Notes: generated from the letters alone by a model not told the origin. 64,000 nucleotides of DNA from Actinomycetota bacterium (GCA_039185015.1 JBCDAU010000012.1:57637-121636), one strand, 5' to 3'. Positions 1 through 60,756 are shown, counted from the stretch's first letter. Program-made: numbers and translations.

Positions 1-556
1 TCAGGTACTCCATGTGCCGGTTGCCCGCCTCGTCGTACGGGTGCATCAGCGCATCGGCGCGGCCGTCGAAGTCGAGCACCTTGGTGCCGAAGCGCTCGCA
101 CAGCTCGACGTTGAACGCCGATGACGCCTTCCTCCACGCACCGTCGAGGTGCAGCTCGCTGTACCCGTGCCAGGCGAACACGTCGGTGCCCATCACCGCG
201 AGGAGCTTCTCGCTGGACAGGTGGTTGCGGACGTCGGCGAACCCCAGTCGCGCCGGGATGCCGGCCGCCCGCGCCGTCGCCGTCAGCAGGACGGACTTCG
301 GGACGCACCAGCTCGAGCTCGTGTCGAGGATCGCGCTGGCCCGGTAGTCGTCGGGGTTCCGGCTCGTGTCGTACGGGTCGTACCGGTAGCCGTCGCGGAC
401 GGCCAGGAACAGGGCGACGGCCCGCTCGCGGTCGTCGGTGGCCGCAGCGCGGTCCATCACGTCCTCGGTGAAGGCGACCACGGCGGGGTGATCGCTGTCG
501 ACGTAGTGACCGGGCGCCAGGTCCTCCTCACCGACCGGACGCTCTCCTTCGGACAT
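1..556 (-). CDS. transglutaminase-like (cysteine peptidase fold) domain protein; 3' end lies beyond the window start
   Basis: The minus-strand frame is open to the window edge, which is why it is absent from the ORF track. It translates MSEGERPVGE...SSWCVPKSVLLTATARAAGIPARLGFADVRNH...WHGYSELHLDGAW with ATG at 554-556. The Cys-containing motif followed by the GIPAR segment is typical of the transglutaminase core. The overlapping plus-strand ORFs are Arg/Pro-rich artefacts. Confidence 0.55.
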   Translation of the reverse strand, partial: MSEGERPVGEEDLAPGHYVDSDHPAVVAFTEDVMDRAAATDDRERAVALFLAVRDGYRYDPYDTSRNPDDYRASAILDTSSSWCVPKSVLLTATARAAGIPARLGFADVRNHLSSEKLLAVMGTDVFAWHGYSELHLDGAWRKASSAFNVELCERFGTKVLDFDGRADALMHPYDEAGNRHMEYL

Positions 557-763
557 GTGCTCCCCCTCCGCCGATCCGTGCGAGACGGTACCGGGCCCCG
601 GCCACGGAAGGTGCCGTGTGCGGACCCTCGACGCCGGTCGGTACCACTCTGCGTCGATCGCCACCCACCCACAGCGGGTCTGCGGTATCTTGCGGCCTGA
701 TGAACGGCGGAGCAACGCTTCGTCGACCTGGTCGTCCATCTGCTCATCGAGTCGGAAGGTCCC

Positions 764-2944
764 ATGCCTGCATCCATTCGCCGGTCGCGCGTCATCGCGC
801 TCCTGCTCGCCGGCCTCACCCTGGCCGTCGTGGCCATCGGCTTCAGCCCCTCGTCATCGGCGGCGCCGGTCGGTTGGCACGAGGGTCGTCACACCCACCG
901 CATCATCGTCACGGTCACCAACGACGCGACCCCGAAGGTCGATGCGCTGGTGGAGGTCGGGTTTCCGACGAACCCCGCCAACCTGCTGCCCGAGACCGTT
1001 CGGGTGACCGAGGTGTCGAGCACTGACCCGACGACCAACGTCGAGGTCGAGGCCGACGTCCCGGTCCAGGTCGACGGCGGCGACACCGTGGTCTTCATGA
1101 TCGACGGCGCGCTCGGCGCCAACGAGACGCGGTTCTTCCACGTCTACTTCGGTTCCGACCGCGCTCAGTCTCCGGGCTTCATCGACACCACCGCCGCCGC
1201 GACGAAGCGGGCCGTCTCGGTCACGCTCCTCTCCGCGACGGCGGCCGGCAACCCGTACGGCGTGGCGATGTACGAGATCGAGACCCGCGCCGGCACCTGG
1301 TACTTCGACCCGAACGGCGGCGGCTTCGCCGGCCTCGTCGATGCCGACGACAACGACTGGATCGGCTGGGACCCGGACCTGCCCGACGAGGGCGGCGAGT
1401 TCCGTGGCATCCCCAAGGCACGGCTCGACACCGCGGAGTACGGAAACGATGAAGGACCGTTCTCGCCCGGCTCGAACGACACCCTGAGCAACATCGTCGA
1501 TCAGGGTCCGGTCCGGGTCACGTTCCGCTCGCAGAGTCGGGACTTCGCCGACCTCAGCGTCGATGGCAACTGGGTCGCCGAGTTCGCGGTCGGCCCGCGA
1601 TCCATGACCTTCGAGATGACGACGGCGCAGAGCGGCGTCGAGTGGCGTTCGCTCTACCAGGGCGAGCCCGGCGGTTCGCTCACGAACGCCGACCAGATCA
1701 TCCTCTCGGGCCAGAACGGCAACGCCCCGACCCAGCTGAACCTGACCAACTTCAGCGGCGCCTCGCTCGGCTCCCCGGAGTGGGCGGCGTTCCTCGACGG
1801 ACCGACCACCCGCTCGCTGGTCGTCTCGGCCACCACCAACCCCGAGGTCGACCTGGCGACGAGCCGGACCACGGCCGAGGGATCGACGACCATCTTCGGC
1901 TTCGGTCGCGCCTCCTCGGCGCAGAACAGCCACGAGCTGACCGGCACCGGCGACGTGTTCACCTACGGCCTCGTCGACTCGAAGACCTCCGGCACCCTCG
2001 AGGCCCGCGCCAACGACTTCCGGGCCGGCGCGATCGGTGACGGCGGGGGGACGGCGACGGCAGCGGCGATCGAGGTGAACACCGACGTCGACACCCCGGA
2101 CGACGCCCCCGAAGCGACGACCACCACGGTGATCACCACCCCCGACACCATCCCGCCGCTGCCGCTCTCGGGCTACCGACTGCTCGACCAGCGGGGCGAC
2201 GTCTACGTGTTCGGCGAGGCCACATTCCTCGGTGAGGCCCGCGGCGACAACGCCCTCCCGGGGACTCCGGTCGACATCGAGTCCACCCCGTCCAACCGCG
2301 GGTACTGGATCATCGACGACCAGGGCAACATCCGAGCCTTCGGCGACGCCACGAACGCCCTCGGAGGCGTGACCACAGCGCTCGATCCGGGCGAGACGGT
2401 GTCGACGATGTCGGCCACGCCGACCGGCGGTGGATACTGGATCTTCACCACCAAGGGTCGAGTGCTCACCTTCGGCGACGCGGGTGACTTCCAGGACCTG
2501 TTCGACATCACCGACGCCAACGGCAACGTGATCGCGAACATCCTCAACGGTCCGATCGTCGACTCGGTGGCCACGCCCTCCGGCAACGGGTACTGGATGG
2601 TCGGCTCCGACGGTGGCGTGTTCACCTTCGGCGACGCCCAGTTCTTCGGCTCGATGGGCAGCACACCCCTCAACCAGCCGGTGAACGGCCTCGTGCCCGA
2701 CCCCGACAACGTCGGGTACTGGCTGGTCGCCGGCGACGGTGGCGTGTTCGCCTTCGACGCCGAGTTCCGGGGCTCCATGGGCAGCATCCCGCTGAACCGA
2801 CCCGTGGTCGGCATGGTGTCCTACGGCAACGGCTACCTGATGGTCGGCGCCGACGGCGGCGTGTTCAACTTCTCCGACCTGCCCTTCGACGGCAGCCTCG
2901 GTGACAACCCGCCAACGGTCCCGGTGGTGGCCATCACCGCCTGA
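764..2944 (+). CDS. secreted protein with an N-terminal signal peptide and six C-terminal ~45-aa tandem repeats (GYW...GGVFxFGDA...GSxG), predicted beta-propeller; function unknown
   Basis: RBS ggaagg lies before the ATG. Signal peptide MPASIRRSRVIALLLAGLTLAVVAIGFSPSSSAAP. Repeat units are visible directly in the translation between residues ~470 and 726. Confidence 0.7.
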   Translation: MPASIRRSRVIALLLAGLTLAVVAIGFSPSSSAAPVGWHEGRHTHRIIVTVTNDATPKVDALVEVGFPTNPANLLPETVRVTEVSSTDPTTNVEVEADVPVQVDGGDTVVFMIDGALGANETRFFHVYFGSDRAQSPGFIDTTAAATKRAVSVTLLSATAAGNPYGVAMYEIETRAGTWYFDPNGGGFAGLVDADDNDWIGWDPDLPDEGGEFRGIPKARLDTAEYGNDEGPFSPGSNDTLSNIVDQGPVRVTFRSQSRDFADLSVDGNWVAEFAVGPRSMTFEMTTAQSGVEWRSLYQGEPGGSLTNADQIILSGQNGNAPTQLNLTNFSGASLGSPEWAAFLDGPTTRSLVVSATTNPEVDLATSRTTAEGSTTIFGFGRASSAQNSHELTGTGDVFTYGLVDSKTSGTLEARANDFRAGAIGDGGGTATAAAIEVNTDVDTPDDAPEATTTTVITTPDTIPPLPLSGYRLLDQRGDVYVFGEATFLGEARGDNALPGTPVDIESTPSNRGYWIIDDQGNIRAFGDATNALGGVTTALDPGETVSTMSATPTGGGYWIFTTKGRVLTFGDAGDFQDLFDITDANGNVIANILNGPIVDSVATPSGNGYWMVGSDGGVFTFGDAQFFGSMGSTPLNQPVNGLVPDPDNVGYWLVAGDGGVFAFDAEFRGSMGSIPLNRPVVGMVSYGNGYLMVGADGGVFNFSDLPFDGSLGDNPPTVPVVAITA

Positions 2945-3051
2945 TCGGCGACCCAACCGAGAACGACTCCATCGGGGCGGTGCTTCGGCGCCGCCCCGAT
3001 GCGCGCCCCTGGAAGCGGTCTCCTCCCCGCTCGGCGACTACACATGTCGCC

Positions 3052-6000
3052 ATGGAGAGGGGCCTGCTCGTCGCCAACCGCGCCGAGATCGCGATCCGCA
3101 TCGCTCGCACCGCAGCGGAGCTCGGTGTCCGCACGGTCGGTGTCCACGCCGTCGACGAGCCCGAACCGCTCCACGTGCGTCGCTGCGACGACCGCCGGAC
3201 GCTGCCCGGCGCCGGCCCGGCGGCCTACCTGGACGTCGACGCACTGGTCGCGGCCGCCGTCGATGCCGACTGCGAGGCGCTGCATCCCGGGTACGGCTTC
3301 GCCAGCGAGCGGGCTGAGCTGGCAGCCGCGTGCGAGGCGGCTGGCGTCACCTTCGTCGGCCCGACCCCGGACACGCTTCGCCGCTTCGGCGACAAGGGCA
3401 CGGCCCGCACGCTCGCCCGCGAGCTCGATGTCCCCGTGCCCGAGGGCACCGACGGGGCGACGACGCTGGCCGAGGCGGCCGAGGTCCGGGCCCGGCTGGG
3501 CGACCGGCCGATGATGATCAAGGCCATCGGTGGCGGTGGCGGACGGGGCATGCGGATCGTCGGCCCCGAGGACGACCTCGAGTCGGCCTTCGAGCGCTGC
3601 GCCTCCGAGGCGTCGGGCTCCTTCGGTGACGATCGGCTCTTCGTCGAGGAGCTCCTCCCGTCCGCTCGTCACGTCGAGGTCCAGCTGATCGGTGATGGCA
3701 CCGGAGCCGTCGCCGTCCTCGGCGACCGCGAGTGCAGCGTGCAGCGTCGCCGCCAGAAGCTCGTCGAGGTCGGTCCCGCGCCCGGGCTCAGCACCGGCGT
3801 CCGCCAGCAGCTCCACGACGCGGCCCGCTCGCTGGGGTCCGCCGTGCAGCTGCGCAGCCTCGCCACCGTCGAGTTCCTCGTCGCCGGTGATCGCATCGCC
3901 TTCCTCGAGGTGAACCCCCGCCTCCAGGTCGAGCACACCGTCACCGAGGAGACGACCGGGCACGACCTCGTCGCCCTGCAGCTGGAGATCGCCGACGGCG
4001 CAGACCTCGCGTCGCTCGGCATCGTCGACGACGGCGCAGCTCCCGCCGCCGACGGCACGGCGATCCAGTGCCGGGTGCTCGCCGAGGTGATCACCGCCGA
4101 CGGCTCCATCCGGCCGGCCGCCGGGCGCATCGACGCGATGGAGGTTCCGAGTGGGCCCGGGGTCCGCCTGGACTCCGCCGTCCACGTCGGCCTCGCACCT
4201 CATCCGGCGTTCGACTCGCTCCTCGGCAAGCTGATCGTGCACGTTCCCGGCGGCGACCTCGCCGCCGCGGCGCGCCGCGCCGATCGCTCGATCGCCGAGC
4301 TCGGACTCCACGGGCTGGAGACCAACCAGGGCCTGCTGCGGGCCGTGCTCCGCCATCCCACCTTCGTCGACGCGGCGAGCACCACCACCTGGTTCGACGT
4401 CGCGGTGGCGGAGCTCGTCGAGGCGGCAGCCGGGCTCGCCCCGGCGGCAGCTCCCCAGGTGGGAGGCGGCATCGGAGCCACCGTCGATGCCGTCGATCCG
4501 CTCGCCGTGCTCGATCACGGCCGCTCGAACGGCCGCGCGAGCGCCGTGGGATCTCCCGACGCAGCTCAGGAGGGAGACGTCGCCGCACCGCTGCAGGGCA
4601 CGGTGATCTCGGTGTCGGTGGTTCCCGGCGACGAGGTGCACGCGGGTGCCGAGCTCGTCGTGCTCGAGGCCATGAAGATGGAGCACGTCGTCCACGCCGA
4701 GGTGGCCGGGCGGGTCAGCGCCGTGCTGGTCGCGGCCGGGACGACCGTCGCCGACCGCCAGCTCCTCGTCCGGGTCGAACCGTCCGGTCACGATGCGGGC
4801 GGCGCGGTCGTCGAGGACGACGTCGACCTCGACCACGTCCGGCCCGACCTCGCCGAGGTCCACGAGCGGCACGACCTCGGTCTCGACCACCGACGGCCGG
4901 CCGCGGTCGAGCGCCGCCGACGGACCGAGCAGCGCACCGCCAGGGAGAACGTCGCCGACCTCGTCGACGACGGCACCTTCGTCGAGTACGGGCCGCTCGT
5001 GCTCGCGGCCCAGCGACGCCGCCGGTCCGTCGAGGAGCTCATCGAGAAGACGCCGGCCGATGGCCTCGTCGGCGGGATCGGCTCGGTCAACGGCGACCTG
5101 TTCTCCGACCGCGACGCCCGCTGCGTCGTGATGTCCTACGACTACACCGTCCTCGCCGGCACGCAGGGCAACCAGAACCACCGCAAGAAGGACCGCCTCT
5201 TCGAGGTCGCCGCCCGCCAGCAGCTGCCCGTGGTCCTCTTCAGCGAGGGTGGTGGCGGTCGCCCCGGTGACACCGACGGTCTCGGCGTCGCCGGCCTGGA
5301 CTGCCTCGCGTTCCGCCTGTTCGGGGAGCTCAGCGGTCTCGTCCCGCTGATCGGGATCAACTCCGGTCGATGCTTCGCCGGCAACGCCGCGCTGCTCGGT
5401 TGCTGCGACGTCGTCATCGCCACCGCCGACTCGAACATCGGGATGGGTGGCCCGGCGATGATCGAGGGCGGCGGCCTCGGCGTGTTCCGGCCCGAGGACG
5501 TGGGCCCGATGGGCGTGCAGGTCGCCAACGGCGTCGTCGACATCGCGGTCGCCGACGAGGCCGAGGCGGTGGAGGTCGCGAAGCGGTACCTCTCGTACTT
5601 CCAGGGTTCGATCGCCGACTGGGACTGCGTCGACCAGCGACGTCTCCGCAGCGCCATCCCCGAGAACCGTCTGCGCGCCTACGACATCCGTCGGGTGATC
5701 GCCGACCTCGCCGACACCGGGTCCGTGCTCGAGCTCCGCTCGGGCTTCGGTCCGGGCATGGTGACGGCGCTCGCCCGGATCGAGGGCCGCCCGACGGGCA
5801 TCGTGGCCAACGATCCGACCCACCTCGGCGGGGCGATCGACTCCGACGGCGCCGACAAGGCCGCCCGCTTCCTCCAGCTCTGCGACGCCTTCGACGTCCC
5901 CGTCGTCTTCCTGTGCGACACGCCGGGCATCATGGTCGGCCCCGAGGCCGAGACCACCGGGACCGTCCGCCACGCGAGCCGACTCTTCGTCGTCGGCGGC

Positions 6001-6393
6001 AGCCTGTCGGTGCCGTTCGTGACCGTCGTGCTCCGCAAGGGCTACGGCCTCGGCGCCCAGGCGATGGCCGGTGGCAGCTTCCATGCGCCGCTGTTCACGG
6101 TCGCCTGGCCCACCGGTGAGTTCGGCGGCATGGGACTCGAGGGAGCCGTGAAGCTCGGCTACCGGGACGAGCTCGCCGCCGTCGAGGACACCGAGGAGCG
6201 GCGGCAGCTCTTCGAGGAGATGGTCGCCCGGATGTACGAGCACGGGAAGGCGCTGAACTTCGCCACCCACTTCGAGATCGACGATGTGATCGACCCGGCC
6301 GACACCCGCCGCTGGATCACGACCGCGCTGGCGTCGGCTCCGCCGCCGGCGCCCCGCACCGGCAAGAAGCGTCCCTGCATCGACACCTGGTGA
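3052..6393 (+). CDS. single-chain multidomain acyl-CoA carboxylase (biotin carboxylase - BCCP - carboxyltransferase fused; LCC-like)
   Basis: BC domain: MERGLLVANRAEIAIR... with glycine loop MMIKAIGGGGGRGMRIV. Biotinyl domain: VLEAMKMEH. CT domain: YTVLAGTQGNQNHRKKD...FSEGGGGRPGD and ...VFLCDTPGIMVGPEAE. The track ORF starts at 2980, but ATG 3052 matches the canonical BC N-terminus. Confidence 0.85.
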   Translation: MERGLLVANRAEIAIRIARTAAELGVRTVGVHAVDEPEPLHVRRCDDRRTLPGAGPAAYLDVDALVAAAVDADCEALHPGYGFASERAELAAACEAAGVTFVGPTPDTLRRFGDKGTARTLARELDVPVPEGTDGATTLAEAAEVRARLGDRPMMIKAIGGGGGRGMRIVGPEDDLESAFERCASEASGSFGDDRLFVEELLPSARHVEVQLIGDGTGAVAVLGDRECSVQRRRQKLVEVGPAPGLSTGVRQQLHDAARSLGSAVQLRSLATVEFLVAGDRIAFLEVNPRLQVEHTVTEETTGHDLVALQLEIADGADLASLGIVDDGAAPAADGTAIQCRVLAEVITADGSIRPAAGRIDAMEVPSGPGVRLDSAVHVGLAPHPAFDSLLGKLIVHVPGGDLAAAARRADRSIAELGLHGLETNQGLLRAVLRHPTFVDAASTTTWFDVAVAELVEAAAGLAPAAAPQVGGGIGATVDAVDPLAVLDHGRSNGRASAVGSPDAAQEGDVAAPLQGTVISVSVVPGDEVHAGAELVVLEAMKMEHVVHAEVAGRVSAVLVAAGTTVADRQLLVRVEPSGHDAGGAVVEDDVDLDHVRPDLAEVHERHDLGLDHRRPAAVERRRRTEQRTARENVADLVDDGTFVEYGPLVLAAQRRRRSVEELIEKTPADGLVGGIGSVNGDLFSDRDARCVVMSYDYTVLAGTQGNQNHRKKDRLFEVAARQQLPVVLFSEGGGGRPGDTDGLGVAGLDCLAFRLFGELSGLVPLIGINSGRCFAGNAALLGCCDVVIATADSNIGMGGPAMIEGGGLGVFRPEDVGPMGVQVANGVVDIAVADEAEAVEVAKRYLSYFQGSIADWDCVDQRRLRSAIPENRLRAYDIRRVIADLADTGSVLELRSGFGPGMVTALARIEGRPTGIVANDPTHLGGAIDSDGADKAARFLQLCDAFDVPVVFLCDTPGIMVGPEAETTGTVRHASRLFVVGGSLSVPFVTVVLRKGYGLGAQAMAGGSFHAPLFTVAWPTGEFGGMGLEGAVKLGYRDELAAVEDTEERRQLFEEMVARMYEHGKALNFATHFEIDDVIDPADTRRWITTALASAPPPAPRTGKKRPCIDTW

Positions 6394-6406
6394 GAGAGGA
6401 GACCCC

Positions 6407-7612
6407 ATGGTCGCCCCGTTGGACGGCGTGAAGGTCGTCGAGATCGCGAGCTGGATGGCGGCGCCGAGCGCGTGCGCGATCCTCGCCGACCTCGGCGCCG
6501 ACGTGGTCAAGCTCGAGCCGCTCGAGGGCGACCCGATGCGCAACAAGGGCCGCCAACCGAAGGTGGCCGACCGCCCGATGATCGACGAGCCCTTCCAGGT
6601 CGACAACCGGGGCAAGCGGGGCATCGCGATCGCGCTCGACGACGCGGAGGGAGCCTCCCTCGCCGCCCGCCTGATCTCCCACGTCGACGTGCTCGTCACC
6701 AACCTGCTCCCCCATCGACAGGCCCGCTTCGGGCTCACGCCCGACGAGCTGTTGGCCGCGCACCCGCGCCTCGTCCACGCCACGCTGTCGGGCTACGGCC
6801 TCGACGGGCCCGAAGCCACCCGAGCCGGGTTCGACGTCACCGCCTTCTTCGGCCGCGCCGGCCTGTCCGACTCACAGCGCGAGCCGGACGGCCCACCCGT
6901 CTTCCCTCGTCCCGCCCAGGGCGACCACACGACCGGTCTGGCGTTGGTGGCCGGAGTCCTGTCCGCGCTCCGCCTGGTCGAGCAGACCGGTGAGGGCCAG
7001 GTGGTCGATGTCAGCCTGTTCGGGACCGCCGTGTGGACGATGGCGACGGACCTCTCCGCCACGGTGATCGACCGGCGTCAGCCGCGGCGCCGGGGCCGCC
7101 ATCAGCTCATCACGCCGCTCGCCAACCGGTTCCCGTGCGGCGACGGCAAGTGGGTGTTCCTCCAGATGCCGGAGGACCGCTGGTGGCCGCGGTTCTGCGA
7201 AGCCGTGGGCCGGGAGGAGTGGTTGGCCGACGAACGGCTCCAGACCACGAAGGGCCGCTTCGACAACATGGCCGAGCTCGTCGACGGCATCGACGAGACC
7301 TTCTCGACCCGCTCGCGGGACGAGTGGGCGAAGATCTTCGACGATGCCGGCCTGATCTGGGGACCGATCAACGATCTGGCGGACGTCGTCGAGGACCCGC
7401 AGGCGGAGGCCGCCGGCCTCTGGGCCGAGATCGAGCATCCCGATGTCGGTTCGTTCGAGACGGTCGCCAACCCCATCGGCATCCGAGGGGTCGACACCGG
7501 ACCGCGGGGCCGGGCGCCGGCGGTCGGTGAGCACACCGGTGAGCTCCTCGCCGATCTCGGCCTGGACGCCGACGAGATCGACCGCCTCCGTTCGAGCGGC
7601 ATCGTCTCGTGA
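6407..7612 (+). CDS. family III CoA-transferase (CaiB/BaiF family)
   Basis: Strong RBS gagaggag. The N-terminus MVAPLDGVKVVEIASWMAAPSACAILADLGADVVKLEP is the family-III CoA-transferase signature. It starts 13 bp after the carboxylase stop. Confidence 0.85.
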   Translation: MVAPLDGVKVVEIASWMAAPSACAILADLGADVVKLEPLEGDPMRNKGRQPKVADRPMIDEPFQVDNRGKRGIAIALDDAEGASLAARLISHVDVLVTNLLPHRQARFGLTPDELLAAHPRLVHATLSGYGLDGPEATRAGFDVTAFFGRAGLSDSQREPDGPPVFPRPAQGDHTTGLALVAGVLSALRLVEQTGEGQVVDVSLFGTAVWTMATDLSATVIDRRQPRRRGRHQLITPLANRFPCGDGKWVFLQMPEDRWWPRFCEAVGREEWLADERLQTTKGRFDNMAELVDGIDETFSTRSRDEWAKIFDDAGLIWGPINDLADVVEDPQAEAAGLWAEIEHPDVGSFETVANPIGIRGVDTGPRGRAPAVGEHTGELLADLGLDADEIDRLRSSGIVS

Positions 7613-8523
7613 ACGAGGTCCGGGTCGGCCTCTCCATCACGTCCGCGCTCCCGGTCGACGACCCGCGCGACGGAGCCACCGACCTGATCGCCCGAGCCGA
7701 GGCTGCCGATCGGGCCGGCCTCGACCTGCTCTGCATCGGCGACCAGCACACCACCCCGATCCCGTACTTCCAGAACGTGCCCACGCTCGCGCGGCTCTCG
7801 GCCGCCTTCAGTGGTCCGCAGCTCGGAGCGCTGTTCCTCGTCCCACTGTGGCATCCGGTCCTGCTGGCCGAGCAGATCGGCACGCTGGCCGCCTTCGCTC
7901 CCGGTCGGTTCGTCGTGCAGGCCGGCCTCGGCGGTGGACGCGGGCAGTTCGCCGCCATGGGCATGCCCTACGCCGGTCGAGCCGCCCGCTACGACGAGGC
8001 GCTCCGGATCGTCGATGCGCTCCTGGCCGGCGAGACCGTCTCGAGCGAGATGTTCGACGTCGTCGACGCCCGCATCGCCCCGATCCCGGTGGAGCCGGTC
8101 GAGTGGTGGCTGGGGGCCGGCGGCGAGCGGGCCCTCGATCGCGTCGCTCGGCGTCAGGCGACCTGGTACGGCAACGCCGACCTCACCCCGACCACCGCGG
8201 CGGAGCGGCTGGCGGTGTTCCGCGTGGCCTGCGAGCGCCACGGCCACGAGCCCGAGCGCATCGCTGTCCGGACCGACGTGATCGTGCTCGACGACGACGC
8301 CGAGGCCCGGCGGCTCGGCGACGACCTGATGGCCGGCGGCTACCGAGGCCTGTCGGCCGACGCGGTGGCCTACGGGTCACCCACCTCGGTCGCCGAGCAA
8401 CTGGAGCCGTACGTCGAGCTCGGCTTCACCGACCTCGTCGTGCGGACGATGGCCGTCCCGCCCGAGACCGCGCAGCGGAGCATCGAACTCACGGGAGAAG
8501 TGCGCCGACTGCTCCGAGCCTGA
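7609..8523 (+). CDS. LLM-class (luciferase-like) flavin/F420-dependent oxidoreductase
   Basis: GTGA start/stop overlap with the CoA-transferase. Sequence ...DLLCIGDQHTTP...WWLGAGGERALDRVARRQATWYGN is typical of the LLM family. Confidence 0.8.
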   Translation: MNEVRVGLSITSALPVDDPRDGATDLIARAEAADRAGLDLLCIGDQHTTPIPYFQNVPTLARLSAAFSGPQLGALFLVPLWHPVLLAEQIGTLAAFAPGRFVVQAGLGGGRGQFAAMGMPYAGRAARYDEALRIVDALLAGETVSSEMFDVVDARIAPIPVEPVEWWLGAGGERALDRVARRQATWYGNADLTPTTAAERLAVFRVACERHGHEPERIAVRTDVIVLDDDAEARRLGDDLMAGGYRGLSADAVAYGSPTSVAEQLEPYVELGFTDLVVRTMAVPPETAQRSIELTGEVRRLLRA

Positions 8524-8532
8524 ACGCCGACG

Positions 8533-9429
8533 TCACCGTGTGGGCGCCGCCGGCATCGCACCCACGAGCCCGATCCAGTTCTCGTTCTGCCGTTCGAGGA
8601 TCGATTCGGCCGCTCCGACGAAGGCAGCGGCGTCCACCGCGTCTGCGACGTCGTAGCGGTCGAGCAGCTCGTCGAGCCTCCGGGCGGTCGTCGCGTAGCC
8701 GGCCGCGATCTGGGTGTGTCGGGTGGCATCGAGGTGCGCGGCGACCGCCGAACCGATGGTCGTGGCGACGCCGATCCACACCCCGAACGCCGAGGAGTCG
8801 AGGAGCGACGCGATCCCGGTGAGGGCGGCCCCGGCGAGGGTCGCGGCCAGCTCGAGTCGTCGAAGCCGGCGGGCCGCGCCTCGGTGCTCGGAGATCTTCC
8901 CGTCGTGCCACCTCGCCTGACCCCTGACGCGGAGCTCGACGTAGCTGGCGAGGTCGGACACCGCGGGCAACGGATCGTCCGGACCCTCGACGTCGACCAG
9001 CTCGACGTCGAGGGTGCGGACGGTCTCGGCGATGCGCTCGGACACGGTGGCGAGATCCTCGTCGCGACCATGGTCGTCGAACGGTGGCGTGCCGACGAGG
9101 TACTCGTGCACGGCCGCCCGGAGCGCCTCGGCCGCGCCGCGCGCCATCGTCCATCGCTCGGCGTGGCCCGACGCCGCCTCCCGCTGCGCGAAGCCGGCGA
9201 GGAGCAGCGCACCGGCGCCGGCCGCGCCGACCACCGCGGTCACCGCTCGCGGCAACGACTGCGCGGCGATCGCTCCGAGGAGCGCACCCGTGCCGAGCAG
9301 CACGAGGTTCGCCAGCCGGAGCCGGTCGAGCCGTGCCCTGGTCCTCACCGCCAGCCGGTCGTAGGCCTGCTGGCGGGCCCAGACGCGCTCGACGGCGCTG
9401 CGGTCGTCAGGAGCCTCGCTCGTGTCCAC
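8533..9429 (-). CDS. membrane protein with two tandem SLATT-like (DUF4231-like) modules, each a 2TM hairpin followed by an E/W/R/Y-rich helix
   Basis: Start GTG at 9429 preceded by ggagga. Module 1: LANLVLLGTGALLGAIAAQSLPRAVTAVVGAAGAGALLLAGF then AERWTMARGAAEALRAAVHEYL. Module 2: LAGAALTGIASLLDSSAFGVWIGVATTIGSAV then IAAGYATTARRLDELL. The domain assignment is from memory of the family pattern, not a search. Confidence 0.5.
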   Translation of the reverse strand: MDTSEAPDDRSAVERVWARQQAYDRLAVRTRARLDRLRLANLVLLGTGALLGAIAAQSLPRAVTAVVGAAGAGALLLAGFAQREAASGHAERWTMARGAAEALRAAVHEYLVGTPPFDDHGRDEDLATVSERIAETVRTLDVELVDVEGPDDPLPAVSDLASYVELRVRGQARWHDGKISEHRGAARRLRRLELAATLAGAALTGIASLLDSSAFGVWIGVATTIGSAVAAHLDATRHTQIAAGYATTARRLDELLDRYDVADAVDAAAFVGAAESILERQNENWIGLVGAMPAAPTR

Positions 9430-9449
9430 TGATCCTCCGTTCGCCGGTC

Positions 9450-10610
9450 CTAGCGCTCGGCGTACACGGCAGTCTCGAGCTCCATGAACAGCTCGACGCT
9501 GCCGGGATCGGCGAACGGCAGGATCTGCGACAGGTACGCGCCACCGATGCCGTTGGTGCGGTCGATCCAGAAGTAGCTGTTGGCGAGACCGGCCCACATC
9601 AACGTCCCGGCCGGGCGACCCGTCGAGCCCGCCTGCTCGTGGATCTGGAACGTGAGCCCCCAGGACTTCTCCTCGCCCGGGAAGAGCTCGGCGTCGTTGG
9701 AGAACGGCGGCATCGCCGTCAGCAGCTCGTTCACCCGCAACGGACCGATGTGGTTGACCACCATGTCGGCCACGGTGTCGGTGCCGAGGACGCGGGTGCC
9801 GTCGAGCTCACCGTCGTTGAGGACCATCTGGATGAAGCGGCCGTAGTCGGTCATCGTGCCCTGCAGTCCGCCACCGCCCATCTCGAACTCCGGCGCCTCG
9901 GGAGCGGGCAGCTCCATCGGGGCGAAGCTGCCGTCGGGCATGCGGGCGTGCACGCCGCAGGCTCGCTCGAGCATCGACGGGGTGTGGGCGAAGGCCGTGT
10001 CGGCCATGCCGAGCGGACCGGTGAGGTGCTCGGCGAAGTACTCCCCGAGGGTCTGCCCGGTGACCGCCTCGATCATCAGGCCGGCCCAGTCGATGCCGAT
10101 GCCGTACTCCCATGCCGTGCCCGGGTCGAAGGCGAGCGGTGTGCGCAGTGCCTCCTTCTGGAGCGTGAAGAGCGAGAGCGCCCCGGTGGCCTCGCTCCAC
10201 CGCACCTGCCGCTCGTTCCAGATGTCGTAGACGAAGCCGGAGGTGTGCGTGAGCAGGTTCCGCAGCGTGATGTCACCGACGGCGGGTCGCAGGATCGGCT
10301 GGCCATCATCGTCGAGGCCGTCGAGCACCTGTGGATCGGCCAGCTCGGGCAGCACCTTCGACGCCGGAGCATCGAGCGAGAGGTGCCCCTGCTCGACCAG
10401 CTGCATCGCCGCCGCACCGGTGATGGCCTTGGTCATGGAGAAGATGGCCCCGACGGAGTCCGGCGTCATCGCGACGTCGCCGCCGATCGCTCGTGCGCCG
10501 GCCGCTCCCTCGTACGTCGCTCCGTCGCGGTCGACGACGACGAACGACGCTCCCGGTGCCGCTCCCCGCTCGATCCCCGCCGCGAGCACCTCGTCGAGAC
10601 GATCTTTCAT
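9450..10610 (-). CDS. serine hydrolase, beta-lactamase/transpeptidase fold (class C beta-lactamase / EstB-like esterase family)
   Basis: SxxK motif SMTK, plus YxN-like and HTSG motifs. 386 aa. Confidence 0.85.
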   Translation of the reverse strand: MKDRLDEVLAAGIERGAAPGASFVVVDRDGATYEGAAGARAIGGDVAMTPDSVGAIFSMTKAITGAAAMQLVEQGHLSLDAPASKVLPELADPQVLDGLDDDGQPILRPAVGDITLRNLLTHTSGFVYDIWNERQVRWSEATGALSLFTLQKEALRTPLAFDPGTAWEYGIGIDWAGLMIEAVTGQTLGEYFAEHLTGPLGMADTAFAHTPSMLERACGVHARMPDGSFAPMELPAPEAPEFEMGGGGLQGTMTDYGRFIQMVLNDGELDGTRVLGTDTVADMVVNHIGPLRVNELLTAMPPFSNDAELFPGEEKSWGLTFQIHEQAGSTGRPAGTLMWAGLANSYFWIDRTNGIGGAYLSQILPFADPGSVELFMELETAVYAER

Positions 10611-10752: not shown

Positions 10753-12633
10753 GTGCCTCGCACGCTCCTCGGTCCCGCCCACCCCTCGTTACCCACCGGG
10801 GTCGAGCTCGACGACGAGGGTGACCGTCTCGTCCTCCGCGCCACGGAGCCAGCGACCGACCTCGCGAGCGGAGTGTTCGCCTCGCCCGGCGCCCACGTCG
10901 CCTTCCGCGTCGACGAGCTCGCCGGTGGGCCGGTCGAAGCGCTCGGCTTCGCGTTCACCCAGTTCGCCATGCCGGTGCGCACCGTCCTCCCGGCTCCGTT
11001 CGAGTTCGCGCCGTCGTCGGCCCTCGCGTCGCCGCCGGCGGTGGTGCCGCTCCTGCTCCGCGCCGGCGGCACGGTGACGCTGCTCGCGCCGCTCGACCAC
11101 GTCCACGATCACGTGATCGGGGTCGTCCAGGACGAGCGGCACGTCACGGAGCTGCGCTGGGGCTGGCACGGTGACCTGGACGAGGTGCCCGACGGGTACG
11201 CCACAACCCTCGGCATCTACGAGGGCGGCTCGGTCGCCGAGGTCCTGACCCGCTGGGGCGCCGAGCTCCAGGAGGCCGCCGGTACCCGGCGGCTCGGTCG
11301 CGCCGACTCGCCCCTCACCGAGCAGCTCTCCTACTGGACCGACAACGGGGCGGCCTATTGGTACCGCACGGAGCCGGGGCTCGATCTGCCGACGACGCTC
11401 GAACGCAAGCTCGACGAGCTCCGGTCGGCGGGCGTCCCGATCGGCGCCGTCGAGCTCGACTCGTGGTTCTACCCGCACGAGACCAGCCGGCCCGTTCTCG
11501 AGGTCGGCTACACCGAACAGGTCCCGCCCACCGGGATGCTCGAGTGGACCGCTCGGTCCGACGTGCTCCCCGACGGGGTGGACGGCCTCGCCGACCGCCT
11601 GGGTCGCCCGCCGCTCGTGCTGCACAGCCGCCACATCTCGACCGCCTCGCCGTACCTGGACGAGGGCGAGTGGTGGACCGAGCTCGCAGCGCAACCGGTG
11701 GACCCGCGGTTCTTCGCCCGCTGGTTCGACGACGCGGCGAGCTGGGGAGCGACCTGCATCGAGCAGGACTGGCTCCTCTTGTACTGGTGGGGCACGGCCG
11801 AGCTCCGACGGATCCCCGGACGGGTCCGCGAGTGGCAGACCACCCTCGATCGACTCGCCGCCGAGCGCGACCAGACGCTGCTGTGGTGCATGGCCACACC
11901 CGCCGACCTCATCGCCACCGTCGAGCTCGGCCGCATCGTCGCCGTCCGCACCAGCGACGACTACCGGTACGCCGACGATCCCGCCTTCCTCTGGCAGTGG
12001 TACCTGGCGGTGAACGCGCTCGCATCCGCGCTCGGCCTCGCGACGTTCAAGGACTGCTCCTTCACCGCCGGGCTGGAGCCGGGTGACGAGGTGATCGACG
12101 GTGACCCGTACCCCGAGGTCGAGGCCGTGCTGCAGGCGCTCTCGGCCGGTGTCGTCGGCATCGGCGATCGGATCGGTCGGACCGACGCCGACGTGGTCGG
12201 ACGACTCCTCCGACCCGACGGCACCCTCGCCACGTCCGACACGCCGGTCACCGTCCACGAACGCTCGGCGTTCCGCCCGTGGGACGCCGACGGCGAGCTG
12301 ACGTGGGCGACCGCCTGGTGCGGCGCCCATCACTACGTGCTCGCACTCCACGCCGCGGCGACCGACGCCCCGATCAGCGACGGACTCGACCTCGACGGCG
12401 AGTGGCTCGTCTACGACTGGCGCTCCGGGACGGCGAGGCCCAGCGGACGTGTCGACGCCGAGCTCGATCATCGCGGCTGGGCCCTGTTCGTCTGCTGCCC
12501 GCTCTCCGGTGCGACCCCCGACCGGTCGGCCGTCGTCGGCGACCCGGACCGCTACGTCACGATGTCGGGCGTCGTCGGCGACGAGCCCGGACTGCTGCGG
12601 TGGACCGAGGGCACCGGCCTCACCCGCTCCTGA
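10753..12633 (+). CDS. hypothetical protein (~626 aa), possibly glycoside-hydrolase-like; function unknown
   Basis: Long ORF with good codon bias (high GC3). The start is uncertain: GTG 10753 is the first in-frame start after the divergent hydrolase gene. The track ORF from 10243 would overlap that gene. Confidence 0.5.
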   Translation: MPRTLLGPAHPSLPTGVELDDEGDRLVLRATEPATDLASGVFASPGAHVAFRVDELAGGPVEALGFAFTQFAMPVRTVLPAPFEFAPSSALASPPAVVPLLLRAGGTVTLLAPLDHVHDHVIGVVQDERHVTELRWGWHGDLDEVPDGYATTLGIYEGGSVAEVLTRWGAELQEAAGTRRLGRADSPLTEQLSYWTDNGAAYWYRTEPGLDLPTTLERKLDELRSAGVPIGAVELDSWFYPHETSRPVLEVGYTEQVPPTGMLEWTARSDVLPDGVDGLADRLGRPPLVLHSRHISTASPYLDEGEWWTELAAQPVDPRFFARWFDDAASWGATCIEQDWLLLYWWGTAELRRIPGRVREWQTTLDRLAAERDQTLLWCMATPADLIATVELGRIVAVRTSDDYRYADDPAFLWQWYLAVNALASALGLATFKDCSFTAGLEPGDEVIDGDPYPEVEAVLQALSAGVVGIGDRIGRTDADVVGRLLRPDGTLATSDTPVTVHERSAFRPWDADGELTWATAWCGAHHYVLALHAAATDAPISDGLDLDGEWLVYDWRSGTARPSGRVDAELDHRGWALFVCCPLSGATPDRSAVVGDPDRYVTMSGVVGDEPGLLRWTEGTGLTRS

Positions 12634-13003
12634 GCCGGGGCTCCCGTCCCAGGAGTCGGTGCAAGACGCCACGGCGCGGCGGAGCGCTCGCGTCCCTGAT
12701 GGCCGTGCGGAGGCCGGCCGCGGGTGTCGCTCCGACGAACCGATCGACGAGCTGCCCCTCACGGAAGACCAACAGCGTCGGCACCGACATCACCCGGTAC
12801 CGCTCGCCGAGCTCGCGCTGCTCGTCCACGTTGACCTTGGCCACGAGGACGCCGTCGTCCCGGTGCTCGGCGGCGACGCGCTCGAGGTCGGGGGCCATCG
12901 TCCGGCACGGCCCGCACCACGGAGCCCAGAAGTCGACGATCGCCACGTCGGCGTCGGCGACAGCGGTGTCGAAGTCGGACTCGGTCAGGGGTCGTGCAGC
13001 CAT
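12620..13003 (-). CDS. thioredoxin
   Basis: WCGPC active site within FWAPWCGPCRTMAP. 127 aa. Confidence 0.85.
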   Translation of the reverse strand: MAARPLTESDFDTAVADADVAIVDFWAPWCGPCRTMAPDLERVAAEHRDDGVLVAKVNVDEQRELGERYRVMSVPTLLVFREGQLVDRFVGATPAAGLRTAIRDASAPPRRGVLHRLLGREPRLRSG

Positions 13004-13039
13004 CGGGTGACGGAACCCGCCTCCGCCGCCGACGATTCC

Positions 13040-13411
13040 TCAGGTCGCAGCCCAGGGGCCGTCGACCGGCACCGCCTCGTCGTCGCCGGGCCAGACGGGG
13101 CTCGTCGTCCCGACGATCTCGAGTGGCTCGTCACCGTCGCAGCGGAACTGGAACGACGTCCCGACCGGGATGTCGAGACAGCGCTTCGGCACCAGCTCGA
13201 CAACCTCCTCACCGTCCTCGTCCCGGCGCCACATGCGTCCGCGTCCCGCGAGCACGAACCACACCTCGTCGACGCTGCGGTGCCGGACGGCGGCGGCCAC
13301 GGCGCCCGGGCCGAGCTCGAAGTGGGCCACCGACGCACCACGAGCGGCGAGCAACACCCGCACGTCACTGCCGTCGGGGGCTGCGACCGTCGGCTCGTCG
13401 GGCAGGTCCAT
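13040..13411 (-). CDS. cupin-domain protein
   Basis: MDLPDEPTVAAPDGSDVRVLLAARGASVAHFELGPGAVAAAVRHRSVDEVWFVLAGRGRMW... The upstream part of the track ORF is antisense to the Rieske gene and was trimmed. Confidence 0.6.
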   Translation of the reverse strand: MDLPDEPTVAAPDGSDVRVLLAARGASVAHFELGPGAVAAAVRHRSVDEVWFVLAGRGRMWRRDEDGEEVVELVPKRCLDIPVGTSFQFRCDGDEPLEIVGTTSPVWPGDDEAVPVDGPWAAT

Positions 13412-13513
13412 CGTCGAGAAGCTCACCCCGCCAGCATGGCCCGAGGCGGCGCCCGTCCCGTATCGACTCCGTCGGGGAACGTGCCCGGCGACGGGTACCG
13501 ACGAGGGGACGCC

Positions 13514-14866: not shown

Positions 14867-14917
14867 GCCGCACGGCGCAGGCGACCGCCCGCCCGCTGGC
14901 GACCGCCCGAGCATGAC

Positions 14918-15286
14918 ATGAGCGACGAGGTCGACCTCGGAGACCTGTCCACGCTCGCCGACGGCGAGATGCGGGCGTGCGAGGCGGGCGGCGTCGAGCT
15001 GCTGGTGTGCCGGGTGCAGGGGGAGCTGTTCGCGCTCGAGGACGTCTGCAGCCACGCCGACACGCCGCTCAGCGAGGGCACGCTGTCCGGTCACCTCGTC
15101 GCCTGCCCGCTGCACGCCGCGCAGTTCGACGTGCGCGACGGCTCCCACACGGGCCCGCCGGCCTACACCGGCGTGCGCTGCTTCGACGTCAGCGAGGGAC
15201 CGGCCGGTGCTCGCATCGACCTGTCCTCGGGCGCCGACGACGGCGACGACGACGGCCCTCCATCGGGGTACTTCCAGACCCGTTGA
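14918..15286 (+). CDS. Rieske-type ferredoxin component
   Basis: CSHADTPL...CPLHAAQF (CxH...CxxH). 122 aa. Immediately downstream of the oxygenase. Confidence 0.8.
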   Translation: MSDEVDLGDLSTLADGEMRACEAGGVELLVCRVQGELFALEDVCSHADTPLSEGTLSGHLVACPLHAAQFDVRDGSHTGPPAYTGVRCFDVSEGPAGARIDLSSGADDGDDDGPPSGYFQTR

Positions 15287-15332
15287 CCCGTCGTGGCGCC
15301 GCGAGCGCTCCAGCAGTGACATCCTCGGGTGC

Positions 15333-16708: not shown

Positions 16709-16746
16709 CTCGGATCCCCTCCTCACGTGGAACCTAGCCTTCGCCC

Positions 16747-30984: not shown

Positions 30985-30991
30985 CGGGCCG

Positions 30992-33010: not shown

Positions 33011-33017
33011 CGGTGAC

Positions 33018-38698: not shown

Positions 38699-38819
38699 CC
38701 CCCATCGGCAGGGCCAGACCGACCGATGAGCACCACGAGGGAGCCGCAGCGTCGGCGGATCCGGATCCGCCCCAGCCGCTCGGGCGTCGCCGCCGAGGTG
38801 ACCGCTACGCTCCGCGGCG

Positions 38820-42916: not shown

Positions 42917-42941
42917 CAGTCAGTGAGACGAGGAGACCGTC

Positions 42942-60676: not shown

Positions 60677-60756
60677 GGGCGGCAGTTTAGAGCGCTCCAA
60701 CGCGGGCTGCCCGAAAACCGCCGGTGGGGTCGAAGCTCCGGTGCGAGGGTGATGCC

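What the first reader, a model, noticed from the sequence alone, without database searches (positions are those of the whole stretch)
3052..8523. Single-polypeptide BC-BCCP-CT acyl-CoA carboxylase in an operon with a family-III CoA-transferase and an LLM oxidoreductase
All three catalytic components of a biotin-dependent acyl-CoA carboxylase are fused in one 1113-aa chain. ATP-grasp biotin carboxylase, AMKM biotinyl domain and both halves of the 12S carboxyltransferase are each visible in the translation. Such single-chain enzymes (long-chain acyl-CoA carboxylase type) are rare compared with the multi-subunit ACC/PCC of actinobacteria. Here it is translationally coupled (13-bp gap, then a GTGA overlap) to a CaiB/BaiF-type CoA-transferase and a luciferase-like flavin/F420 oxidoreductase. 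That grouping points to a dedicated carboxylation / CoA-transfer / oxidation pathway on an unknown acid substrate rather than housekeeping fatty-acid synthesis.
Basis: partly seen in the sequence, partly recalled or inferred. Interest (0 to 1): 0.55.

Follow-up and report, generated by a model that had tools for sequence, protein, structure and literature searches.

The report
Single-chain acyl-CoA carboxylase with CoA-transferase
This is an intact but ordinary member of the already described single-chain "long-chain acyl-CoA carboxylase" family, packed tightly with a CoA-transferase that is probably a real partner and a flavin/F420 oxidoreductase whose presence is specific to this lineage.

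Summary
Bases 3052-6393 encode an 1113-aa protein with biotin carboxylase, an AMKM biotinyl domain and a complete carboxyltransferase. A 13-nt gap carrying AGGAG leads to a family-III CoA-transferase (6407-7612). A GTGA overlap then leads to a 304-aa luciferase-like oxidoreductase (7609-8523).

The carboxylase is not new. It matches the solved M. avium LCC (PDB 4RCN) over its full length at 1106 bits. Its CT domain scores 686 bits against LCC but only about 200 bits against PccB and AccD5. Full-length relatives at 59-78% identity come from many phyla, so the type is not rare.

The three-gene unit is kept only in three close relatives (LCC 73-74% identical), and these share wider synteny. Across 62 LCC loci from other species, no orthologue of this LLM lies within 10 kb. 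LLM orthologues at 56-58% identity sit alone in unrelated contexts.

The CoA-transferase link is better supported:
- An orthologous LCC...CoAT pair survives in a relative whose LCC is 60% identical.
- Non-orthologous family-III transferases lie next to LCC in 5 of 62 species (about 0.75 expected).
- AMP-forming acyl-CoA ligases lie directly beside LCC on the same strand in 6 of 62 species.

Likely model: an acid is activated to its CoA thioester and then carboxylated. The substrate is unknown and interest is low to moderate.

The parts
3052..6393 (+). LCC-type single-chain acyl-CoA carboxylase, 1113 aa
   Evidence: Pfam domains. [quoted passage not shown]
3061..4398 (+). Biotin carboxylase (ATP-grasp) domain, residues 4-449
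   Evidence: Biotin_carb_N, CPSase_L_D2 and Biotin_carb_C. The glycine-rich loop GGGGRGMR (161-168) and K115, K157, H207, E274, E286, N288, R290, E294 and R341 are invariant among 17 family members.
4579..4773 (+). BCCP / biotinyl domain, residues 510-574; the biotinyl-lysine K542 codon is at 4675-4677
   Evidence: Biotin_lipoyl, E 1.9e-13. E539-A-M-K542-M-E-H is invariant.
4930..6333 (+). Carboxyltransferase domain (both 12S-type halves), residues 627-1094
   Evidence: Carboxyl_trans covering 7-476 of 493 positions, E 3e-75. The CT region (residues 585-1113) queried alone against PDB gives 686 bits to 4rcn, 639 bits to 5fif and 229 bits or less to all multi-subunit CTs.
6394..6406 (+). 13-nt intercistronic gap with a Shine-Dalgarno-like AGGAG at 6397-6401
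   Evidence: Read directly from the sequence. The same junction is a 10-nt gap in L081, L082 and L083.
6407..7612 (+). Family-III (CaiB/BaiF) CoA-transferase, 401 aa; the putative catalytic Asp173 codon is at 6923-6925
   Evidence: CoA_transf_3 over positions 1-366 of 366, E 1.6e-104. Best NCBIfam hits are succinate-glutarate, formyl-CoA and mesaconate transferases, all far below their cut-offs. D173 is invariant in 13 orthologues.
7609..7612 (+). GTGA start/stop overlap between the CoA-transferase and the LLM
   Evidence: Read directly from the sequence. The same junction ranges from a 4-nt overlap to a 3-nt gap in L081-L083.
7609..8523 (+). Luciferase-like (LLM) oxidoreductase, 304 aa, probably F420-dependent
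   Evidence: Bac_luciferase, E 1.9e-32. The top NCBIfam hits are all F420-LLM subfamilies, but all fall below their cut-offs. The best PDB relatives are Mer and F420-dependent hydroxymycolic acid dehydrogenase.

Best explanation
The locus encodes an intact member of the known LCC family of single-chain, biotin-dependent acyl-CoA carboxylases.

Mechanism, taken from established knowledge of the family and not shown here:
- The N-terminal ATP-grasp BC domain uses ATP and bicarbonate to carboxylate biotin attached to K542 of the BCCP domain.
- The BCCP domain swings to the C-terminal CT domain.
- The CT domain transfers the carboxyl group to the alpha-carbon of an acyl-CoA, giving a 2-alkylmalonyl-CoA.

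The carboxylase is very probably co-transcribed and translationally coupled with a family-III CoA-transferase. My inference is that this transferase supplies the carboxylase's thioester substrate. It would move CoA from a donor such as succinyl-CoA onto a free carboxylic acid. This is the same job that AMP-forming acyl-CoA ligases appear to do when they sit next to LCC in other species.

The luciferase-like oxidoreductase is probably F420-dependent. It is a lineage-specific third cistron. It may modify the same unknown acid, for example at a keto or hydroxy group, but nothing beyond co-location in one narrow clade links it to the carboxylase.

The physiological substrate is unknown. It is more likely a catabolic or specialised acid than the housekeeping malonyl-CoA supply.

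Confidence by step:
- LCC membership: about 0.95
- Functional LCC-CoAT coupling: about 0.55
- LLM participation: about 0.3
For: LCC membership:
- Domain order and sizes.
- 1106-bit full-length match to 4rcn.
- The CT domain scores three times higher against the LCC and D. radiodurans single-chain carboxylases than against any PCC, ACC, MCC or 12S.
- Catalytic and biotinylation residues are invariant.

Operon-like packing:
- 13-nt gap with AGGAG, and a GTGA overlap.
- A convergent gene lies downstream.
- The same spacing is kept in L081, L082 and L083.

LCC-CoAT coupling:
- L164 keeps an orthologous LCC (59.5% identical) followed by an orthologous CoAT (65.8% identical), even though a toxin-antitoxin pair and a reverse transcriptase have been inserted between them.
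- In an NJ tree of CT domains, the window clade, L164, L005 and L051 group together, and all of them have a family-III CoAT close by: adjacent in the window clade, L005 and L051, about 3 kb downstream in L164. L009 joins the same group without one.
- In the CoAT tree, the LCC-linked CoATs form a subclade with one exception (P0131). This subclade is separate from the CoATs that sit next to enoyl-CoA hydratase.
- Among 62 LCC loci, a family-III CoAT lies within 300 bp in 5, against about 0.75 expected from the density in the outer flanks (rough Poisson P about 0.001).
- Every LCC-adjacent CoAT that was tested scores best to the transferase models (succinate-glutarate, mesaconate, formyl-CoA) of NCBIfam.

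Acid-activation theme:
- AMP-binding acyl-CoA ligases are among the most frequent LCC neighbours. They occur in 10 of 62 loci, and in 6 they lie within 100 bp on the same strand.
Against: - No transcript or biochemical data exist for this locus.
- The three close relatives that keep the unit also share synteny over several upstream genes. Conservation there may therefore reflect recent common ancestry rather than selection on the unit.
- LCC homologues at 65% identity (P0007, P0010) have no CoAT neighbour.
- CoAT orthologues at 62-65% identity mostly sit elsewhere, next to leuS, an enoyl-CoA hydratase and an AMP-ligase, or next to methylmalonyl-CoA mutase.
- The LCC-adjacent CoATs in other lineages are only 23-30% identical to this one, and they differ in position and orientation.
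- The enrichment estimate rests on very small counts and on loci that are not phylogenetically independent.
- The NJ trees have no support values.
- LLM orthologues outside the narrow clade are never next to LCC or CoAT. LLMs found beside other LCCs (L062, L175, L055) belong to different subfamilies, at 26-28% identity where compared, and their adjacency is not significant (P about 0.09).
Confidence: 0.6

Rival explanations
1. The genes are co-located without a shared pathway. The three genes may be co-transcribed, but the CoA-transferase and the LLM act on substrates unrelated to the carboxylase. The unit persists in relatives only because of recent common ancestry.
For: - The unit is found intact only in genomes with 73-74% LCC identity, and these also keep the upstream secreted protein, transglutaminase-core and nitroreductase genes.
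- The nearest species-representative LCCs (L061, L062) and the 65%-identical P0007 and P0010 lack the CoAT.
- Most CoAT and LLM orthologues lie in other contexts.
- Family-III CoATs and LLMs are multi-copy families in these genomes. For example, a second LLM lies 6 kb upstream in L081 and L082.
Against: - The start/stop overlap and the 10-13-nt gaps are preserved, while the downstream region has been remodelled by gain or loss of a SLATT/TIR island.
- The orthologous LCC...CoAT order survives at 60-66% identity in L164, across an insertion.
- CoAT adjacency is enriched across unrelated lineages.
Confidence: 0.25
2. The CoA-transferase acts after the carboxylase. It would use the 2-alkylmalonyl-CoA product as a CoA donor, releasing free alkylmalonate and recharging a new acid molecule in a catalytic CoA cycle. 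Alternatively, it would shift CoA between the two carboxyl groups, which amounts to epimerisation at C2.
For: - All the closest characterised relatives of this CoAT, and of the other LCC-adjacent CoATs, act on dicarboxylates or their CoA esters: succinate-glutarate, succinyl-CoA:mesaconate, formyl-CoA:oxalate, SUGCT, and 2-methylfumaryl-CoA isomerase as an intramolecular example.
- The carboxylase product is itself a dicarboxylic acid mono-CoA ester.
- The CoAT gene lies downstream of LCC.
Against: - All matches are far below the equivalog cut-offs, for example 192 bits against a cut-off of 750, so substrate class cannot be transferred from these relatives.
- In four other lineages (L013, L038, L043, L051) the CoAT lies upstream of LCC.
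- There are no biochemical data.
Confidence: 0.12
3. The enzyme is a housekeeping acetyl- or propionyl-CoA carboxylase. It would supply malonyl- or methylmalonyl-CoA for lipid synthesis, and the neighbouring genes would be incidental.
For: According to Livieri et al. 2019 (PMC6491548), summarising Tran et al. 2015, LCC enzymes are active on substrates from C2 to C16. The window contains no other carboxylase.
Against: - The CT domain groups with LCC, not with PccB, AccD or AccB.
- The same source reports a Km for palmitoyl-CoA 350-fold lower than for acetyl-CoA.
- LCC neighbours in other species are catabolic-type genes: acyl-CoA ligase, acyl-CoA dehydrogenase, enoyl-CoA hydratase and SDR.
- The remainder of the genome was not available, so I could not check for a conventional ACC.
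Confidence: 0.05

Closest known systems
Long-chain acyl-CoA carboxylase of Mycobacterium avium subsp. paratuberculosis (MapLCC, PDB 4RCN; Tran et al., Nature 2015)
   Same: The domain order (BC, linker/BT, BCCP, CT) and the length (1113 vs 1093 aa) match. The alignment is full-length at 1106 bits. The AMKM motif and the catalytic residues are the same.
   Different: The host is an uncultured Actinomycetota MAG, and the gene neighbourhood differs. Oligomeric state and chain-length preference were not tested here.
Deinococcus radiodurans single-chain carboxylase (PDB 5FIF for the CT, 5H80 for the BC)
   Same: The CT domain scores 639 bits and the BC domain 395 bits, which places them in the same single-chain family.
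   Different: It is more distant than MapLCC. The PDB entries name only 'Carboxylase', so no substrate can be transferred.
SACE_3154 of Saccharopolyspora erythraea (group III CT, LCC-type; Livieri et al. 2019, PMC6491548)
   Same: It is an actinobacterial single-chain LCC orthologue that is likewise distinct from the essential ACC.
   Different: I did not compare it by sequence here. That paper calls LCCs rare, which the present searches do not bear out.
Multi-subunit PCC/ACC of actinobacteria (PccB 1XNV, AccD5 2A7S, AccA3)
   Same: The chemistry and the domain folds are the same. The BC domain scores about 310 bits and the CT domain about 200 bits.
   Different: Those enzymes have separate alpha and beta subunits. 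The CT here scores three times lower against them than against LCC, so it is not a member of that group.
Succinate-glutarate / succinate-hydroxymethylglutarate CoA-transferases (NF052585; human SUGCT, PDB 9BR6) and formyl-CoA transferase
   Same: They share the family-III fold over the full length, and they are the best-scoring characterised relatives of the CoAT.
   Different: The scores are 192 bits against a cut-off of 750, and 182 bits against 442. The CoAT is therefore not an equivalog, and its substrate is unknown.
F420-dependent LLM oxidoreductases (TIGR03619 Rv2161c family; Mer; hydroxymycolic acid dehydrogenase, PDB 9FP4)
   Same: They share the Bac_luciferase TIM-barrel, and they are the best-scoring subfamilies and solved structures for the LLM.
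   Different: Every subfamily cut-off is missed (84.9 bits against 166.9). Cofactor and substrate are not established.

Membership tests
LCC (single-chain long-chain acyl-CoA carboxylase) | One polypeptide of about 1100 aa with the order BC, BCCP, CT | tested here: met
   Pfam domains at residues 4-449, 510-574 and 627-1094 of an 1113-aa protein.
LCC (single-chain long-chain acyl-CoA carboxylase) | Full-length sequence similarity to MapLCC that exceeds similarity to any other carboxylase class | tested here: met
   4rcn_A scores 1106 bits over both halves. For the CT domain alone, 4rcn scores 686 bits, against 229 bits for 12S and 203 bits for AccD5.
LCC (single-chain long-chain acyl-CoA carboxylase) | Biotinylation motif (A/V)MKM and an intact BC active site | tested here: met
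   EAMK542MEH is present. GGGGRGMR, K115, K157, H207, E274, E286, N288, R290, E294 and R341 are invariant in a 17-sequence alignment.
LCC (single-chain long-chain acyl-CoA carboxylase) | Domain-swapped homo-hexameric holoenzyme | not testable with these tools
   This needs SEC-MALS, cryo-EM or crystallography.
LCC (single-chain long-chain acyl-CoA carboxylase) | Kinetic preference for long-chain acyl-CoA | not testable with these tools
   This needs enzyme assays. The property is known only from the literature, as summarised in PMC6491548.
Propionyl-/acetyl-CoA carboxylase beta subunit (PccB/AccD) | The CT domain is closest to PccB/AccD-type carboxyltransferases | tested here: not met
   PccB scores 196 bits and AccD5 203 bits, against 686 bits for LCC.
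Pyruvate carboxylase (NF009554 / TIGR01235) | Whole-protein score above the curated cut-off | tested here: not met
   The score is 542 bits against a cut-off of 965. Only the BC part (residues 4-450) matches.
Family-III CoA-transferase (CaiB/BaiF) | Full-length CoA_transf_3 domain | tested here: met
   The match covers positions 1-366 of 366, with 350 bits against a cut-off of 23.3.
Family-III CoA-transferase (CaiB/BaiF) | Catalytic aspartate (Asp169 of Frc) | tested here: inconclusive
   D173 in the motif QGDH is invariant in 13 orthologues. Query residues 1-205 align to Frc residues 1-201, which is consistent with D173 matching D169. I did not inspect the residue-level alignment to Frc.
Succinate-glutarate CoA-transferase (NF052585) / formyl-CoA transferase (NF003809, TIGR03253) | Score above the curated cut-off | tested here: not met
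   The scores against their cut-offs are 192.5 vs 750, 182.3 vs 442 and 176.3 vs 504.
Luciferase-like monooxygenase/oxidoreductase (LLM) superfamily | Bac_luciferase domain | tested here: met
   113 bits against a cut-off of 27.9.
F420-dependent LLM subfamilies (TIGR03619, TIGR03854 and others) | Score above the subfamily cut-off, which would imply F420 use | tested here: inconclusive
   The six best hits are all F420-LLM models, but all fall below their cut-offs, for example 84.9 vs 166.9. The cofactor needs a binding assay.

The most novel reading that the evidence does not exclude
In one LCC subclade, the carboxylase and a dicarboxylate-type family-III CoA-transferase would form a catalytic CoA shuttle. 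The transferase would take CoA from the 2-alkylmalonyl-CoA product and place it on a fresh molecule of free acid. The pair would then carboxylate a free carboxylic acid to a free alkylmalonate, at the cost of one ATP and with only catalytic amounts of CoA. The F420-type LLM would then redox-tailor that product. This would give LCC, whose physiological role is still undefined, a concrete pathway.
Probability: 0.1. Interest if true: 0.55.

Novelty: new member of a known kind. Interest (0 to 1): 0.25.

Why it matters
The physiological substrate and role of LCC-type single-chain carboxylases remain undefined. [quoted passage not shown]

The useful outcome here is a context clue rather than a new enzyme. 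LCC genes recur next to acid-activating enzymes, either AMP-forming ligases or family-III CoA-transferases. In the subclade containing this window, the CoA-transferase pairing appears to be inherited.

That suggests a testable two-enzyme module (acid to acyl-CoA to alkylmalonyl-CoA) and gives a short list of proteins to express together. It does not change the picture of biotin carboxylases. NCBI already annotates the source genes generically as 'carboxyl transferase domain-containing protein', 'CoA transferase' and 'LLM class flavin-dependent oxidoreductase'.

Tried and rejected
- Metagenome scan with a CoAT alignment. The back-translated patterns fell on the generic N-terminal family-III motif, so the 80 loci were mostly paralogues at 30-50% identity. 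None had a single-chain LCC nearby. This says little about true orthologues.
- Tran et al. 2015 could not be read, either by PMC id or by DOI. Literature searches for LCC plus CoA-transferase operons, and for the Deinococcus single-chain carboxylase, returned nothing.
- The sigma-70 promoter and intrinsic-terminator scan of 400-9800 found nothing. It is uninformative for a sequence at 71% GC. Rfam and tRNA scans of the whole window also found nothing.
- The representative-library search with the LCC-specific linker and CT N-terminal segment gave 318 clusters at E<=1e-30. The family is so conserved that 50% clustering collapses it, and many representatives are fragments. The number is therefore not a usable abundance estimate.
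- L061 is the nearest LCC among the species-representative genomes, at 78% identity in the CT half. Its LCC is split by frameshifts, probably assembly errors, and its neighbouring ORFs gave no Pfam hits. It served only as a negative for the CoAT and LLM.
- I considered whether the upstream 726-aa gene belongs to the unit and rejected this. It encodes a signal-peptide protein with C-terminal GYW...DGGVF...FGDA repeats and has no metabolic domain. It is separated from LCC by 107 bp here and by an extra 159-aa gene in relatives.
- I considered pyruvate or urea carboxylase, which are the top NCBIfam names, and rejected them. Only the BC part matches those models.

Full report
**1. What is in the sequence**

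The window has about 71% GC. Codon-position GC analysis picks out three consecutive plus-strand genes with GC3 of 0.87-0.91.

The first gene runs from ATG 3052 to TGA 6393 and encodes 1113 aa. Its Pfam domains are:
- Biotin_carb_N, residues 4-109
- CPSase_L_D2 / ATP-grasp, residues 114-320
- Biotin_carb_C, residues 339-449
- Biotin_lipoyl, residues 510-574
- Carboxyl_trans, residues 627-1094, covering 7-476 of the 493-position model

The biotinylation motif EAMK542MEH is present, as is the glycine-rich loop GGGGRGMR.

- After the stop codon comes 'gagaggagacccc', with AGGAG five bases before the ATG at 6407.
- The 401-aa product of 6407-7612 matches CoA_transf_3 end to end (E 1.6e-104).
- Its TGA (7610-7612) overlaps the GTG (7609-7611) of a 304-aa Bac_luciferase protein that ends at 8523.
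- The next gene, a SLATT-domain protein at 8533-9597, is on the opposite strand.
- Upstream, 107 bp separate the carboxylase from a 726-aa secreted repeat protein with no Pfam match.

**2. What the carboxylase is**

[quoted passage not shown] It scores 1106 bits in two stretches that together cover both proteins. The next hits are the CT (5fif) and BC (5h80) fragments of another single-chain carboxylase.

The CT region (residues 585-1113) was also searched on its own:

| PDB entry | Enzyme | Bits |
|---|---|---|
| 4rcn | MapLCC | 686 |
| 5fif | D. radiodurans single-chain carboxylase | 639 |
| 1on3 | 12S transcarboxylase | 229 |
| 2a7s | AccD5 | 203 |
| 1xnv | PccB | 196 |
| various | MCC/GCC beta | 134 or less |

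NCBIfam names such as pyruvate carboxylase match only the BC part and miss their cut-offs. The protein is therefore a member of the LCC family described by Tran et al. in 2015. That paper could not be opened here. Its content is taken from Livieri et al. 2019, PMC6491548, and from my own recollection. According to these, LCCs are homo-hexamers active on C2-C16 acyl-CoAs, with a much lower Km for palmitoyl-CoA, and their physiological role is only vaguely assigned.

An alignment of 17 family members shows 73% mean column identity, and all expected catalytic residues are invariant.

**3. How common it is**

The exact protein is already in NCBI, from an Actinomycetota MAG contig of 138,986 bp. 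All 120 listed database hits are full-length proteins of 1102-1169 aa at 59-78% identity. They are labelled Actinomycetota, Acidimicrobiales, Binatia, Dehalococcoidia, Myxococcota and Proteobacteria.

**4. Is the three-gene unit conserved?**

*Close relatives.* Three contigs have an LCC that is 73-74% identical to this one. They keep the order LCC, CoAT, LLM, with 10-nt gaps at the first junction and between a 4-nt overlap and a 3-nt gap at the second. CoAT identity is 73-87% and LLM identity 66-69%. They also keep the upstream secreted protein and several further genes, so shared ancestry alone could explain the conservation. The region downstream of the LLM differs between them. A SLATT gene follows the LLM in the window, SLATT and TIR genes follow it in L081, and neither is present in L082.

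*Across the family.* In the 62 LCC loci from other species:
- tblastn finds family-III CoATs in only a few loci, at 23-30% identity, and finds no orthologue of this LLM.
- Clustering of the neighbouring ORFs shows no universal partner. The commonest neighbours are AMP-binding acyl-CoA ligases (10 loci), SDRs (10), acyl-CoA dehydrogenases (10), family-III CoATs (6) and enoyl-CoA hydratases (6).
- Six of the ligases lie within 100 bp of LCC on the same strand.

*From the partners' side.* CoAT orthologues at 62-66% identity were looked up on long contigs:
- One (L164) lies 3 kb downstream of an LCC that is 59.5% identical. A PemK toxin-antitoxin pair and a reverse transcriptase are inserted between the two genes.
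- Three others sit next to leuS, an enoyl-CoA hydratase and an AMP-ligase.
- One sits next to methylmalonyl-CoA mutase.
- LLM orthologues at 56-58% identity are isolated genes in unrelated contexts.
- LCCs at 65% identity (P0007, P0010) have no CoAT. One of them has a divergently oriented LLM of a different subfamily.

*HMM survey.* Home-built CoAT and LLM profiles were run on the 62 loci:

| Neighbour type | Loci with one within 300 bp of LCC | Expected from outer-flank density | Rough Poisson P |
|---|---|---|---|
| Family-III CoAT | 5 (4 upstream on the same strand) | about 0.75 | about 0.001 |
| LLM | 2 | about 0.5 | 0.09 |

The counts are small, and the loci are not phylogenetically independent.

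*Trees.* In an NJ tree of CT domains, the window clade, L164, L005 and L051 form one group, which L009 joins. Every member of that group except L009 has a CoAT close to its LCC, adjacent in all but L164. In a CoAT tree, the LCC-linked CoATs form a subclade, with P0131 as the one exception. That subclade is distinct from the CoATs linked to enoyl-CoA hydratase. The trees carry no support values.

*Conclusion.* The LCC-CoAT link is probably real and inherited within a subclade, and it recurs with non-orthologous transferases elsewhere. The LLM is a lineage-specific addition.

**5. Likely mechanism**

*Shown.* All catalytic modules of a biotin carboxylase are intact. The CT domain is LCC-type. 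The gene is tightly packed with a CoAT and an LLM.

*From established knowledge of the family.* The BC domain carboxylates biotin on K542 using ATP and bicarbonate. The BCCP domain moves to the CT domain, which carboxylates the alpha-carbon of an acyl-CoA.

*Inferred.* LCC recurrently sits beside acid-activating enzymes, either ligases or CoA-transferases. The CoAT here therefore most plausibly makes the acyl-CoA substrate from a free acid and a CoA donor.

*An alternative.* All LCC-adjacent CoATs score best to dicarboxylate-type transferases, although far below their cut-offs. The transferase could therefore act on the dicarboxylic product, either as a CoA shuttle or through an intramolecular shift that amounts to epimerisation.

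*The LLM.* It scores best to F420-LLM subfamilies, to Mer and to F420-dependent hydroxymycolic acid dehydrogenase, all below their thresholds. A redox step on a keto or hydroxy acid is possible but unsupported.

**6. Comparison, novelty and verdict**

The carboxylase passes every membership test for LCC that can be run on sequence. Oligomeric state and substrate preference cannot be tested with these tools. It fails the tests for PccB/AccD and for pyruvate carboxylase. The CoAT and the LLM belong to their superfamilies but to no defined equivalog.

This is a new member of a known kind. Its claims of rarity and of a dedicated three-step pathway are overstated.

Interest is low to moderate (0.25). 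The value lies in a modest context clue to the still unknown physiological role of LCC.

Noticed in passing
window 764-2944 (+): A 726-aa protein with a signal peptide and no Pfam or NCBIfam match. Its C-terminal third contains 5-6 repeats of about 40 aa of the form 'GYWxxxxDGGVFxFGDAxFxGS'. It is conserved at 64-69% identity directly upstream of LCC in L081-L083, where a further 159-aa gene without a Pfam match lies between it and LCC.
   Followed up: partly
window 8533-9597 (-); compare L081 13481-17895 and L082: A SLATT_1/DUF4231 two-transmembrane effector-type protein lies immediately downstream of the LLM. L081 has SLATT, a TIR_2 protein and a 705-aa protein at the same spot, and L082 has none of them. 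This looks like a variable defence-type islet inserted between the LLM and the thioredoxin/Rieske genes.
   Followed up: partly
window 16738-18081 (+): A 447-aa protein with an N-terminal TIR_2 domain, which may be another defence-type gene.
   Followed up: no
window 26134-31047 (-) and 30992-33427 (-): A 1637-aa protein with DUF3686 ('ATPase involved in DNA repair'), DUF7902 and a C-terminal AAA domain. It is adjacent to an 811-aa ORF with no Pfam match.
   Followed up: no
window 9450-10610 (-), 12449-15286 (+), 14922-16178 (+): A beta-lactamase-family serine hydrolase, a Rieske/Ring_hydroxyl_A oxygenase alpha subunit with a Rieske ferredoxin, and a PPK2 polyphosphate kinase. The longest-ORF calls overlap one another, so the true start codons are later than those listed.
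   Followed up: no
L164 5021-7484: In the relative whose LCC is 60% identical, a small antitoxin-like gene, a PemK toxin and an RVT_1 reverse transcriptase (group II intron or retron type) are inserted between the LCC and its orthologous CoA-transferase.
   Followed up: no
L005 13467-16046 (-) and 16118-18679 (-): In Candidatus Poriferisodalis, two proteins of about 855 aa lie next to the LCC. Each appears to be a fusion of two family-III CoA-transferase domains: Pfam confirmed the pair in the first, and tblastn found two CoAT hits in each.
   Followed up: partly
L082 11350-12552 compared with window 6407-7612: Divergence within the unit is uneven. The L082 CoA-transferase is 87% identical to the window's, while the flanking LCC is 74% identical and the LLM 66%. 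Possible causes are stronger constraint on the transferase or recombination.
   Followed up: no
L062 8587-9966, L175 4648-5838, L055 9863-10975: LLM-class oxidoreductases lie directly next to LCC genes in three other lineages, in same-strand, divergent and convergent orientation respectively. The L062 and L175 proteins are only 26-28% identical to each other and to the window's LLM where compared; the L055 protein was not compared. The enrichment is not significant (P about 0.09).
   Followed up: partly
window 36668-39286 (-), 42927-44318 (+), 59498-60853 (-): A GGDEF-EAL signalling protein, an RPE65-type carotenoid oxygenase and a PhyH-family dioxygenase. These are ordinary chromosomal content and show no link to the finding.
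   Followed up: no
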